Below are positions 3,141 to 7,657 of a DNA stretch of 64,000 nt, in pieces. Position 1 is the first letter of the stretch. Every line of letters starts with the position of its first letter. Source of the stretch: the human T2T-CHM13v2.0 reference genome, Homo sapiens; assembly GCF_009914755.1 (NCBI RefSeq), contig NC_060929.1; one strand, given 5' to 3'. The translations under genes were made by a program, and so were the position numbers. Below the pieces are notes generated by a model. That model was not told the DNA's origin and searched no databases. It was given only the letters and a program-made list of their open reading frames with translations.

Positions 3141-3574
3141 TATACACAGAGGGGGAGAGAGAGAAAGAGAAGACACTAGCTGTGAATCATTTTAGTGCCT
3201 ATCCCAGAAAGCCTAGAAACTGTTGCTTGAAGTGTGTTCCACAGACCATTTACACCAGAATCACTCAGGTTATTTGTTTAGATGTAGTACTGACACAGAA
3301 TCACAGAATCTCTGGGAATTGCACTTTGAAGAAGGAAAAACTGGAAACGTTCACGAGCTGTCCAGTTTTCAAGATGAAACACCTGTTATTACCAATCTTC
3401 AGCAACTTTGATTGAGCTTTCTCTACTGGACACTTTTCCAACATGCAAAAAAAGAGTCTACTCATTTCATTTCTATTTCCTATGCACTCTTAATACAGCT
3501 TAGACTGATTGTCTTAAAAAAAAAAAAGAAAAGAAAAAAAAAGAAGTCATTTTGTGAATGAAAATTGCCCTCAA

Positions 3575-6239
3575 CAATAATTAATAGCCTACCAACCAAA
3601 AAAAGTCCAGGACCAGATGGATTCACAGCCGAATTCTACCAGAGGTACAAAGAGGAGCTGGTACCATCCCTTCTGAAACTATTCCAATCAATAGAAAAAG
3701 AGGGAATCCTCCTTAACTCATTTTTTGAGGCCAACATCATCCTGATACCAAAGCCGGGCAGAGACACAACCAAAAAAGAGAATTTTAGACCAATATCCCT
3801 GATGAACATCGATGCAAAAATCCTCAATAAAATACTGGCAAACCGAATCCAGCAGCACATCAAAAAGCTTCTCCACCACAATCAAGTTGGCTTCATCCCT
3901 GGGATGCAAGGCTGGTTCAATATATGCAAACCAATAAAAGTAATCCATCATATAAACAGAACAAAAGACAAAAACCACATGATTATCTCAATAGATGCAG
4001 AAAAGGCCTTCAACAAAATTCAGTAGCCCTTCATGCTAAAAACTCTCAATAAACTAGGTATTGATGGGATGTATCTCAAAATAATAAGAGCTATTTATGA
4101 CAAACCCACAACCAATATCATACTGAATGGGCGAAAACTGGAAGTATTCCCTTTGAAAACTGGCATAAGACAGGGATGCCGTCTCTCACCACTCGTATTC
4201 AACATAGTGTTGGAAGTTCTGGCCAGGGCAATCAGGCAAGAGAAAGAAATAAAGGGTATTCAATTAGGAAAAGAGGAAGTCAAATTGTCCCTGTTTGCAG
4301 ATGACATGATTGTATATTTAGGAAAACCCATCGTCTCAGCTCAAAATCTCCTTAAGCTGATAAGCAACTTTAGCAGTCTCAGGATACAAAATCAGTGTGC
4401 AAAAATCACAAGCATTCTTATACACCAATAACAGACAAACAGAGAGCCAAATCATGAGTGAACTCCCATTCACAATTGCTTCAAAGAGAATAAAATACCT
4501 AAGAATCCAACTTACATGGGATATGAAGGACCTCTTCAAGGAGAACTACAAAACACTGCTCAATGAAATAAAAGAGGATACAAACAAATGGAAGAACATT
4601 CCATGCTTATGGATGGGAAGAATCAATATTGTGAAAATGGCCATACTGCCCAAGGTAATTCATAGATTCAATGCCATCCCCATCAAGCTACCAATGACTT
4701 TCTTCACAGAACTGGAAAAAACTACTTTAAAGTTCATATGGAACCAAAAAAGAGCCCACATTGCCAAGGTAATCCTAAGCCAAAAGAACAAAGCTGGAGG
4801 CATCATGCTACCTGACTTCAAACTATACTAGAAGGCTACAGTAACCAAAACAGCATGCTACTGGTACCAAAACAGAGATATAGACCAATGGAACAGAATA
4901 GAGCCCTCAGAAATAATACCACATGTCTACAACTATCTGATCTTTGACAAACCTGACAAAAACAAGCAATGGGGAAAGGATTCCCTATTTAATAAATGGT
5001 GCTGGGAATACTGGCTAGCCATATGTAGAAAGCTGAAACTGGATCCCTTCCTTACACCTTATACAAAAATTAATTCAAGATGGATTAAAGGATTAATTGT
5101 TAGACCTAAAACCATAAAAACTCTAGAAGAAAACCTAAGCAGTACCATTCAGGCCACAGGCATGGGCAAGGACTTCACAACTAAAACACCAAAAGCAATG
5201 GCAACAAAAGGCAAAATTGACAAATGGGATCTAATTAAACTAAAGAGCTTCTGCACAGCAAAAGAAACTACCATCAGAGTGAACAGGCAACCTACAAAAT
5301 GGGAGAAAATTTTCGCAACCTACTCATCTGACAAAGGGCTAATATCCAGAATCTACAATGAACTCAAACAAATTTACAAGAAAAAAACAAACAACCCCAT
5401 CAAAAACTGGGCAAAGGACATGAACAGACACTTCTCAAAAGAAGACATTTATGCAGCCAAAAGACACATGAAAAAATGCTCATCATCACTGGCCATCAGA
5501 GAAATGCAAATCAAAACCACTATGAGATACTATCTCACACCAGTTAGAATGGCAATCATTAAAAAGTCAGGAAACAACAGGTGCTGGAGAGGATGTGGAG
5601 AAATAGGAACACTTTTACACTGTTGGTGGGACTGTAAACTAGTTCAACCATTGTGGAAGACAGTGTGGCGATTCCTCAAGGATCTAGAACTAGAAATACC
5701 ATTTGACCCAGCCATCCCATTACTGGGCATATACCCGAAGGATTATAAATCATGCTGCCATAAAGACACATGCACACATAGGTTTACTGCGGCACTATTC
5801 ACAATAGCAAAGATTTGGAACCAACCCAAATGTCCATCAATGATAGACTGGATTAAGAAAATGTGGCACATATACACCATGGAATATTATCCAGTCATAA
5901 AAAAAGATGAGTTCATGTCCTTTGTAGCGACATGGATGAAGCTAGAAACCATCATTCTCAGCAAACTATTGCAAGGGCAGAAAACCAAATACTGCATGTT
6001 CTCACTCATAGATGGGAATCGAACAGTGAAAACACTTGGACACAGGGTGGGGAACTTCACACACTGGGGCCTGTTGTGGGGTGGAAGGATGGGGGAGGGA
6101 CAGCATTAGGAGATATACCTAATATAAATTACAAGTTAACAGGTGCAGCACACCAACATGGCACATGTATACATATGTAACAAACCTGCACATTGTGTAC
6201 ATGTACCTTAGAACTTAAAGCATTAAAAAAAAAAACAAA
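3575..6239 (+). mobile_element. 5'-truncated LINE-1, L1PA4/L1PA5-like; disrupted ORF2 (RT and C-terminal domains) plus 3' UTR
   Basis: ORFs 3565-4026, 4033-4431 ([11 protein letters not shown] motif), 4397-4831 and 5162-6109 ([18 protein letters not shown]) are L1 ORF2p, broken by stops and frameshifts; primate 3' UTR and A-tail at 6225-6239. Confidence 0.97.
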
Positions 6240-6551
6240 CTTAAATCCCCAATGCAACAGTATTAAGAGGTGGGGCCTTTAGGAGGTGATTAAGTCATGA
6301 GGGCAGAGCCCTCATGAATGGGATAAGCAACTTTATAAAAGGGCTGGAGGGAATTAGCTAGGCTCGTTTGTCCTTCTGCCTTCCACCATGTAAAGACAAT
6401 GCATCCCTTCCAGAGAAAGCAGTACTCAAGGCACCATCTTGAAAGCAGAGACCAGGCCCTTAGCAGACACTGAACCTGTCAACATCTTGATGATTTTGGA
6501 CTTCTTACACTCTAGACCAATAAGAAAATAAATTTCTCTTCTTTATAAACT
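6238..6551 (+). mobile_element. MaLR LTR fragment (MSTD/MSTC-like) carried as an L1 3' transduction
   Basis: AAATCCCCAATGCAACAGTATTAAGAGGTGGGGCCTTTAGGAGGTGATT... is MST LTR sequence lacking both termini; AATAAA at 6527-6532, poly(A) 6552-6570, then the L1 TSD GAAAATTGCCCTCAA (3560-3574 = 6571-6585). Confidence 0.9.
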
Positions 6552-7657
6552 AAAAAAAAAAAAAAAAAAAGAAAATTGCCCTCAAACCCTCAAATCCTGT
6601 ATTGTCCTATGGGTAAACCCATAAATTTAAGATAGTGGCTGATCTAATTACTGATAACCTGTCATCCAGGTAACAAGAAATTAGAAATGCTGATTAGGAA
6701 GGAGGGGGAAATGCAATATAATTTAGAACAGTTTTCATCAAAAAATGATTATTTAAGCAGTAAGATTTGGTATATGCAAAATTCATTTATATAAAACATC
6801 ACATTTGCCTGAGGATAGTGTATAAGTAAAGGGTTATCGCTAAGGCTTGTCTGTTATCATTGGAGAAACATGCCTATTTGAAATTGTATTTGCTGTTTAC
6901 TTGCTATAATTTCCATGTTTGTAAATAAGGAATCTTGTTATGTACATTGTAACATTTGTTTTATTCTTGTTTCCCAAACCAGTAGCCAGTGGTTAGATGA
7001 CTCTAAGGATGGAGCAGCAAACTTTGGGGGAATAGTTTTTGAAAGACATTAATGCAGTAACAGCAAACATTATTACTTATTGAACATTTACTTTATGCTA
7101 GATGCATAATATCAACTTTATATGCATTATCTAATTTAATCTTCTCAACCTACCATTTTTCAAGCAAAAAAAAAAATCCACTACCATTTTATTCAGCATT
7201 CTCTCATATTAGAAAGTTAATCTCAGTCCCCTGAGCAGTAGAGAAATTTATTCAGGTTTCTGGGTGAGGATGTGATCTATGAGAATTTTGAAGAGCATGA
7301 AAATCTCTGACACAGAGGTTACAACTAAAAGCATCACAGCCTAAACAACTCTAAAAATATTGTCTCAGAAATAGCAAAATCATAAAGAACATGGAGCTCT
7401 ATTTTATCACCTTAGCCTGGCTTTTTTATCTAACTCTAGTGATTTGACATCGTTGCTGTAGTGAAACGTAATACTAATTTCAGGGATATGATGTAGGAAA
7501 GACTAAAATACAGAAAATTTGGTATCGTGTTTTATATTAGTTTAAAGTATTATGAATTGCTTATGTAAGCAATTACAAATTTAAAAATTACCTTTTTAAA
7601 TTTGGTATAATGATCATAGTAAGTGTGTTTTCTATGTATGTGTAAAACTACATATTA

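What the first reader, a model, noticed from the sequence alone, without database searches (positions are those of the whole stretch)
3560..6585. L1 3' transduction: an L1PA carried a MaLR LTR piece, polyadenylated at the LTR's own signal
One perfect 15-bp TSD (GAAAATTGCCCTCAA, 3560-3574 and 6571-6585) encloses the L1, its A-tail (6225-6239), ~310 nt of MST-type LTR and a second poly(A) (6552-6570). The LTR piece lacks its 5' TG start and its 3' CA end, and stops 19 nt after its AATAAA (6527-6532). Inference: the source L1 sat inside an MST LTR elsewhere, read through its weak poly(A) site and used the LTR's signal. An LTR was thus moved by L1 machinery long after MaLRs went extinct. Repeat annotation would likely show this as an independent LTR. 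The transduced piece is a tag for the source element.
Basis: partly seen in the sequence, partly recalled or inferred. Interest (0 to 1): 0.75.

Follow-up and report, generated by a model that had tools for sequence, protein, structure and literature searches.

The report
L1 copy carrying an old LTR piece
A truncated L1 retrotransposon and a piece of a much older retrovirus-like LTR were pasted into this site together in one event, which is an ordinary by-product of how L1 copies itself.

Summary
One exact 15-nt direct repeat (3560-3574 and 6571-6585) encloses four things. They are a 5'-truncated L1 (3575-6224), its short A-run, 315 nt of a MaLR-type LTR (6237-6551), and a pure 19-A tail that starts 19 nt after the LTR's AATAAA.

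The LTR piece lacks about 44 nt at its 5' end and about 47-49 nt at its 3' end, compared with in-situ copies of the family. It is as diverged as ordinary in-situ copies: best non-self identity is 77-78%, against 76-79% for two control copies.

The L1 is much younger. It is 92-94% identical to its kin and has 3.3-4.4% private changes, which gives roughly 20-27 Myr.

So an old LTR fragment travelled as a passenger of a later L1 event. 3' transduction is the best reading.

The predicted parent locus was not found in the visible part of T2T-CHM13. The read-through step is therefore inferred, not shown.

The names "MST" and "L1PA4-6" rest on recall and on divergence. No named repeat library was available.

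This is a known mechanism and of low interest.

The parts
3560..3574 (+). 5' copy of the target-site duplication (15 nt)
   Evidence: Exact match to 6571-6585 (family D6, 46). The two bases before it plus its first four read AT/GAAA. That is 4 of 6 against the TT/AAAA endonuclease motif given in print (PMC11838501, figure-legend passage).
3575..6224 (+). 5'-truncated L1 (primate L1PA type): the 3' two-thirds of the ORF2 region plus the 3' UTR. One broken gene remnant.
   Evidence: 9708 first-look candidates in the genome, best non-self 93%. It is 92-94% identical to 20 fetched copies. RVT_1 was found in 2 of 4 open stretches scanned separately. The + strand reading is split into at least four open stretches over two frames, so there are at least two stops and one frame change. 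This is a lower bound; the exact count was not determined. L1 homology starts exactly at 3575.
6225..6236 (+). Internal A-run of the L1 (11 A, then C). It is read as the genomic tail of the source L1.
   Evidence: The L1 ends in an ATTAAA-type hexamer only. AATAAA lies within 30 nt of the anchor in 14 of 29 other copies, and 5 of 29 have ATTAAA only.
6237..6551 (+). Passenger: the internal 315 nt of a MaLR-type (MST-like) LTR, in the same orientation as the L1. It lacks about 44 nt at the 5' end and about 47-49 nt at the 3' end.
   Evidence: 4843 first-look candidates; the 37 scored non-self hits are 73-79% identical. It is as diverged as two in-situ control copies.
6527..6532 (+). AATAAA of the LTR, 19 nt before the tail
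   Evidence: The same hexamer is at the homologous place in 14 of 24 family copies that cover it.
6552..6570 (+). Terminal poly(A), 19 pure A, untemplated
   Evidence: None of 19 in-situ LTR copies (0 of 19) has an A-run at this place; most of them continue with LTR sequence.
6571..6585 (+). 3' copy of the target-site duplication
   Evidence: The flank beyond it is unique in the genome: no hit extends past query position 117.

Best explanation
This is one L1 retrotransposition event of the 3'-transduction kind.

Inferred steps:
1. A source L1 sat inside an MST-like MaLR LTR, in the same orientation, about 44 nt into the LTR at an endonuclease-type site.
2. Its transcript ran past the L1's own weak end signal.
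3. The transcript was cleaved and polyadenylated 19 nt after the LTR's AATAAA.

Shown by the anatomy:
4. L1 proteins nicked chr5 at AT/GAAA, primed on the poly(A) and reverse-transcribed the RNA.
5. Copying stopped 2.65 kb into the L1.
6. This left 15-nt target-site duplications around L1 + A-run + LTR piece + poly(A).

Dating, by hand and the rate: about 20-27 Myr ago. The LTR sequence itself dates from the MST bursts of early primates.
For: - A single exact 15-nt TSD encloses all parts. P is about 2e-6 at the junctions.
- The layout is the printed definition of an L1 transduction: TSDs, L1, extra sequence, then a new poly(A) tail after a downstream signal (PMC4862182, Background and Fig. 1 legend passages).
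- The poly(A) begins 19 nt after a hexamer that is the LTR family's own (14 of 24 copies). It is absent from in-situ copies (0 of 19).
- Two ages sit in one insertion:
  - L1: 68-92 window-minority columns of 2078, which is 3.3-4.4%.
  - LTR piece: best non-self identity 77-78%, like the in-situ controls at 79% and 76%.
- The left edge of the piece falls at a place in the LTR that reads GTTG/AAAC in most copies and GTTA/AAAC in L062.
- In another copy (L068) an Alu poly(A) tail abuts exactly this position. That is an independent endonuclease-type hit at the same site.
- L018 shows that an L1 3' end nested in a same-sense copy of this LTR family does occur.
- The internal A-run is short (11 A), as expected for a genomic tail.
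Against: - No parent locus was found. An old, fixed LTR should survive even if the source L1 allele was lost, and it should be about 92% identical. The visible genome offers nothing above 77-81%, and the 36-nt pattern found only itself.
- No junction-spanning sibling was found.
- No L1 copy shares more than 6 of the window's 31 rare L1 variants.
- The only close match is a 79-nt LTR stub on chr2 (97.5%, L062):
  - It has no L1.
  - It is cut off right after the match.
  - It shares no rare variant with the window (0 rare columns).
  - It has no remainder within about 14-16 kb.
- The target-site motif matches only 4 of 6.
- The weak-signal argument is soft. The hexamers at the L1 end vary among copies and may have changed after insertion.
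- Closed regions of the reference and the tool's first-look filter limit the weight of the negative searches.
Confidence: 0.78

Rival explanations
1. RNA-level chimera. L1 reverse transcriptase started on a polyadenylated cellular transcript that ended in this LTR. It then switched template onto the poly(A) of an L1 RNA, or the two RNAs were joined beforehand. No L1 ever sat next to that LTR in the genome.
For: - No L1-in-LTR source locus and no sibling were found.
- Print treats the absence of a source L1 at the parent gene as a hint of recombination between two RNAs. It also describes template switching and RNA ligation during L1 insertion (PMC11838501, passages).
- A switch onto poly(A) would also favour an A-rich breakpoint such as AAAC.
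Against: - Described chimeras carry the foreign RNA 5' of a 3' L1 segment (PMC11838501, passages). Here the order is the reverse.
- This model needs a parent LTR just as much, so the missing parent does not favour it.
- The internal A-run is only 11 nt, shorter than an RNA tail would usually give.
- The breakpoint is a site where an independent Alu insertion is seen in another copy. That fits a genomic insertion site.
- From my recall of the literature, transductions are far commoner.
Confidence: 0.12
2. Two unrelated events. The LTR fragment was already at this site, or arrived separately, the L1 landed beside it, and the 15-nt repeat is chance.
For: - The LTR piece has no partner elsewhere, as is normal for an in-situ copy.
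Against: - The exact 15-mer sits at both outer junctions (P about 2e-6).
- No TSD-like repeat surrounds the L1 alone. The bases after its A-run are LTR sequence.
- The flanks hold neither of the missing LTR ends.
- A pure 19-A run sits exactly at a poly(A) site where 0 of 19 in-situ copies have one.
Confidence: 0.02
3. DNA-level copy: a segmental duplication, or repair capture, of an existing L1+LTR block.
For: None found.
Against: - No other copy of the junction or of the flank exists in the genome.
- The terminal poly(A), the TSD and the 5' truncation are hallmarks of reverse transcription at a nick.
Confidence: 0.01

Closest known systems
L1 3' transduction. The papers of Moran 1999, Goodier 2000, Pickeral 2000 and Szak 2003 were seen only as reference-list entries. 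The mechanism and layout were read in PMC4862182 passages.
   Same: TSD - L1 - internal A-run - non-L1 sequence ending just after a downstream AATAAA - new poly(A) - TSD.
   Different: The passenger is itself a repeat, an LTR fragment, so it cannot be mapped by uniqueness. Its parent locus is not found in the visible T2T-CHM13.
Chimeric L1 retrocopies made by template switching or RNA ligation, such as U6/L1, tRNA/L1 and Alu/L1 (PMC11838501, passages)
   Same: Two RNA-derived segments in the same sense inside one TSD pair, with a poly(A) tail.
   Different: In those, the L1 segment is the 3' part and the foreign RNA is 5' of it. Here the L1 is 5', it carries its own A-run, and the foreign part supplies the final poly(A) site.
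Solitary MST-type ERVL-MaLR LTRs in situ (PMC10735291, Results read)
   Same: Same sequence family and the same level of divergence.
   Different: In-situ copies run from TG to CA, about 400-420 nt by my count, and have no poly(A). This piece lacks both ends, ends at the poly(A) site and lies inside an L1 TSD.
SVA composite elements (mentioned in a PMC11838501 passage)
   Same: An LTR-derived segment at the 3' side of an RNA that L1 proteins mobilise.
   Different: SVA is an amplifying family. This is a single, dead-on-arrival copy.

Membership tests
L1 3' transduction | One TSD pair flanks the L1, the extra sequence and the terminal poly(A) | tested here: met
   15 of 15 exact at 3560-3574 and 6571-6585.
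L1 3' transduction | The L1 part reaches its own 3' end and A-run, and the extra sequence follows in the same sense | tested here: met
   The L1 3' end aligns with 29 other copies up to their tails. The A-run is at 6225-6235 and the LTR piece is on the + strand.
L1 3' transduction | The extra sequence ends shortly after a poly(A) signal and is followed by an untemplated poly(A) | tested here: met
   AATAAA at 6527-6532, then 19 nt, then 19 A. None of 19 in-situ copies (0 of 19) has an A-run there.
L1 3' transduction | The extra sequence maps to a parent locus directly 3' of a progenitor L1 | tested here: not met
   The best non-self match is 77-81%. The 36-nt pattern with up to 3 mismatches found only itself. 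No hit spans the junction. The chr2 79-nt stub is inconclusive. Closed regions and first-look filtering limit the weight of these negatives.
L1 3' transduction | Target site resembles TT/AAAA | tested here: inconclusive
   AT/GAAA, which is 4 of 6. The motif comes from a PMC11838501 legend passage.
L1 3' transduction | An empty site in outgroup species that lacks L1 and passenger together | not testable with these tools
   No primate genomes were available.
ERVL-MaLR, MST-type LTR | A dispersed high-copy family whose full copies run TG...CA over about 400 nt | tested here: met
   4843 candidates. 19 copies show the extra 5' nt, most of them starting TG. Of the 19 copies examined downstream, most carry extra 3' nt ending CA. 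The window piece itself lacks both ends.
ERVL-MaLR, MST-type LTR | Match to the named MST consensus or model (Dfam/Repbase), and subfamily assignment | not testable with these tools
No named repeat library was at hand. The subfamily-diagnostic features are in a supplementary figure of PMC10735291, and supplements were closed.
ERVL-MaLR, MST-type LTR | Family age in early primates | tested here: inconclusive
   Best pairwise identity among copies is 76-79%, so the family is old. Absolute dating from these numbers is rough. Print places the MST subfamilies between the primate ancestor and early simians.
L1PA (primate L1) | Reverse-transcriptase coding remnant and the conserved L1 3' end | tested here: met
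   RVT_1 in 2 of 4 open stretches. The 3' end is shared with 29 copies.
L1PA (primate L1) | Subfamily named by diagnostic positions | not testable with these tools
   Only age by divergence was possible: 3.3-4.4% private changes at 0.17% per Myr, which gives about 20-27 Myr. Print puts L1PA6 at 26.8 Myr (PMC4083085 passages). The Khan 2006 table was not held.
Template-switch / ligation L1 chimeras | Foreign RNA lies 5' of a 3' L1 segment | tested here: not met
   Here the L1 is the 5' part and the LTR piece the 3' part. The definition comes from PMC11838501 passages.

The most novel reading that the evidence does not exclude
The composite is not a read-through product. Instead it is a reverse-order RNA chimera: L1 reverse transcriptase began on an LTR-terminated, polyadenylated cellular transcript and then jumped onto an L1 RNA. 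In that case this copy may be the only surviving record of an LTR locus that the human lineage has since lost.
Probability: 0.1. Interest if true: 0.4.

Novelty: new member of a known kind. Interest (0 to 1): 0.2.

Why it matters
This is a clean textbook instance showing that L1 can relocate fragments of long-dead retrovirus-like elements. A family-based repeat annotation could then count such a fragment as an independent LTR insertion, and so misdate LTR activity. The mechanism is well known, and nothing suggests a function at this intergenic site, so it matters little beyond annotation hygiene. The one loose end is the missing parent locus.

Tried and rejected
- **Search for the parent locus.** I used four reference-based searches of the own genome and one 36-nt pattern with up to 3 mismatches. 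Nothing scored above 77-81% except a 79-nt stub on chr2.
- **The chr2 stub (L062/L071).** It is 97.5% identical over window 6237-6315, has its own TG start and no L1.
  - The window has 0 rare columns in those 79 nt, so nothing derived is shared.
  - There is no LTR remainder and no young L1 within about 14-16 kb either side.
  - I kept it only as a weak candidate remnant.
- **L018 as the source.** Rejected. It has a different, older L1, a (GAAA)n tail, a junction about 35 nt further into the LTR, and 79% identity.
- **Sibling L1s.** L057 shares the unusual L1 end, but only 2 of 31 rare variants. The maximum for any copy is 6 of 31.
- **Editing signature in the LTR piece.** Minority columns give C>T 11 and G>A 7, with no strand bias. 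Rejected.
- **Private-change counts as an absolute age for the LTR piece.** The result depends on the threshold: 2.6% to 14.7%. I did not use it, and used the in-situ controls instead.
- **Papers not held:** Khan 2006, Szak 2003, Pickeral 2000.
- **Literature.** The listing (17 papers held at least 4 of the 5 terms; 15 were listed; I saw titles and abstract starts only) showed no paper on L1 transduction of MaLR LTR pieces. I make no wider claim about what is in print.
- **Supplements.** Not requested, because they were closed. Fig. S3 of PMC10735291 may hold the features that name the MST subfamily.
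Full report
**What is there**

Reading window 3400-6800, with the repeat finder and a script check, confirms each item of the finding.
- The 15-mer GAAAATTGCCCTCAA occurs at 3560-3574 and at 6571-6585.
- Between the two copies, on the + strand, lie:
  - an L1 body (3575-6224);
  - an A-run (11 A, C, AAA; 6225-6239);
  - about 315 nt that are not L1;
  - 19 pure A (6552-6570), starting 19 nt after an AATAAA (6527-6532).
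- An exact 15-mer at a given pair of places has P = 4e-9, or about 2e-6 with +-10 nt of slack at both junctions. The repeat is therefore a real target-site duplication.
- L1 homology begins exactly at 3575. All 5 of 5 full-coverage L1 copies continue upstream with L1 sequence that the window lacks.

**The L1**

- The body has thousands of relatives: 9708 first-look candidates, 40 scored, best non-self 93%.
- Two of four open stretches, scanned separately, hit the reverse-transcriptase family RVT_1.
- The coding remnant is 5'-truncated and broken. It has at least two stops and one frame change, a lower bound taken. Places are not listed.
- Against 20 fetched copies it is 92-94% identical.
- Of 2078 columns with at least 8 copies aligned, the window carries a base shared by fewer than 20% of copies at 68 columns, and by fewer than 50% at 92. 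That is 3.3-4.4%.
- The other copies have medians of 2.6% and 3.5% on the same measures.
- The rate used in print is 0.17% per Myr (PMC11838501, Methods passage). With a Jukes-Cantor correction done by hand, this gives about 20-27 Myr.
- Print places L1PA6 at 26.8 Myr, and the L1PA7 group older (PMC4083085, passages).
- The subfamily could not be named. No named library was available, and Khan 2006 was not held.

**The LTR piece**

- Window 6240-6551 finds 4843 first-look candidates in the genome. The 37 scored non-self hits are 73-79% identical.
- Alignment to 29 of them shows that homology runs from 6237 to 6551/6552.
- In-situ copies carry about 43-45 more nt upstream, most of them starting TG. 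Most also carry about 47-49 more nt downstream, ending CA.
- None of 19 copies (0 of 19) has an A-run where the window's tail begins.
- The window's AATAAA is the family's own: 14 of 24 copies covering that place have it, and the others are one or two changes away.
- Two ordinary in-situ copies used as control queries find best non-self hits of 79% and 76%. The window piece is therefore as old as its family.
- I take the family to be an MST-type ERVL-MaLR LTR.
- Print reports the following (PMC10735291, Results read in full):
  - MST subfamilies are primate-specific.
  - They were active from the primate ancestor to early simians.
  - MaLR replication lasted until about 45 Myr ago.
- The subfamily is unresolved.

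**One event, two ages**

Everything between the TSD copies is new to the site. The L1 is about 20-27 Myr old, while the LTR sequence is of MST age. The LTR fragment was therefore carried as a passenger, long after its family had died.

In-situ origin plus a chance repeat is excluded. The grounds are the junction statistics, the missing LTR ends in the flanks, and the untemplated tail. The flank is unique, and no second copy of the junction exists, which rules out a DNA-level duplication.

**How**

The layout is the printed one for L1 3' transduction (PMC4862182, passages). Three further points fit a genomic L1 sitting inside an LTR.
- The piece starts at an LTR position that reads GTTG/AAAC in most copies and GTTA/AAAC in L062. 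These are close to or equal to TT/AAAA (the motif is).
- In another copy of the family (L068), an Alu poly(A) tail abuts exactly that position.
- L018 shows an older L1 3' end nested in a same-sense copy of the family.

The internal A-run is short, as a genomic tail would be. The L1 end has only an ATTAAA-type hexamer, but such ends vary among copies, so this point is weak.

**What speaks against, or stays open**

- The parent locus is missing. A retro-copy of this age should have a partner about 92% identical.
- The visible T2T-CHM13 gives at most:
  - 77-78% over the whole piece;
  - 78% over the 3' 236 nt;
  - 80-81% over the last 110 nt.
- A 36-nt pattern with up to 3 mismatches finds only the window.
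- No hit spans the L1/LTR junction.
- No L1 copy shares more than 6 of the window's 31 rare variants.
- The sole close match is a 79-nt LTR stub on chr2 (97.5%).
  - It has no L1 and ends right after the match.
  - The window has no rare column there, so the likeness proves nothing.
  - No remainder lies within about 14-16 kb.
- A lost parent (deleted, or inside a closed region) is needed by every retro-copy model. It therefore does not separate read-through from an RNA-level chimera.
- I keep the RNA-level chimera as the main rival, at about 0.1. Print describes such chimeras with the L1 at the 3' side, which is the opposite of this layout (PMC11838501, passages).
- Divergence along the piece is uneven: 1 minority column of 79 in 6237-6315, against 45 of 234 beyond. 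I cannot explain this. There is no strand-biased editing pattern (C>T 11, G>A 7).

**Verdict**

- It is a new instance of a well-known process, in an L1-rich intergenic stretch, with no sign of function.
- Interest is low.

Noticed in passing
window 9424-10417: An older L1 piece whose 5' part is inverted. 9685-9424 on the minus strand (83% identity) is joined to 9685-10417 on the plus strand (80%). It looks like a twin-priming-type inversion.
   Followed up: no
window 12166-14566, 15299-17708, 26908-29479, 31365-32128: Further, older L1 fragments on the + strand, 70-80% identical to the L1 of the finding. The region is L1-rich.
   Followed up: no
window 30734-30840: The annotated U6 pseudogene RNU6-1296P on the minus strand. 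One search shows no minus-strand L1 3' piece next to it, so it does not look like a U6/L1 chimera at that sensitivity.
   Followed up: partly
window 6327-6551: The public soft-mask stretches of at least 100 nt are 3572-5143, 5153-6021 and 6025-6326. Most of the LTR piece therefore lies outside any listed masked stretch.
   Followed up: no
window 3516-3546: An A-rich tract just upstream of the 5' TSD. It may be the decayed tail of an older retroelement. Its origin was not examined.
   Followed up: no
L018 (chr5:33519442-33520669), about 330-730: An older L1 3' end with a (GAAA)n tail, nested in another same-sense copy of the LTR family about 35 nt further in. It is an extant example of the source-type layout, but it is not the source (79% identity).
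   Followed up: partly
L068 (chr17:61694033-61695143), minus strand, about 480-1000: Two Alu elements in tandem. The poly(A) tail of the second abuts the same LTR position at which the window's LTR piece begins.
   Followed up: partly
L062/L071 (chr2:69559017-69559095): An LTR stub about 124 nt long with its own TG start. Its last 79 nt are 97.5% identical to window 6237-6315. It is cut off and followed by unrelated sequence and an old L1 fragment.
   Followed up: yes
L006 (chr4:106321912-106323221): One LTR copy is directly followed by the start of a second copy of the same family.
   Followed up: no
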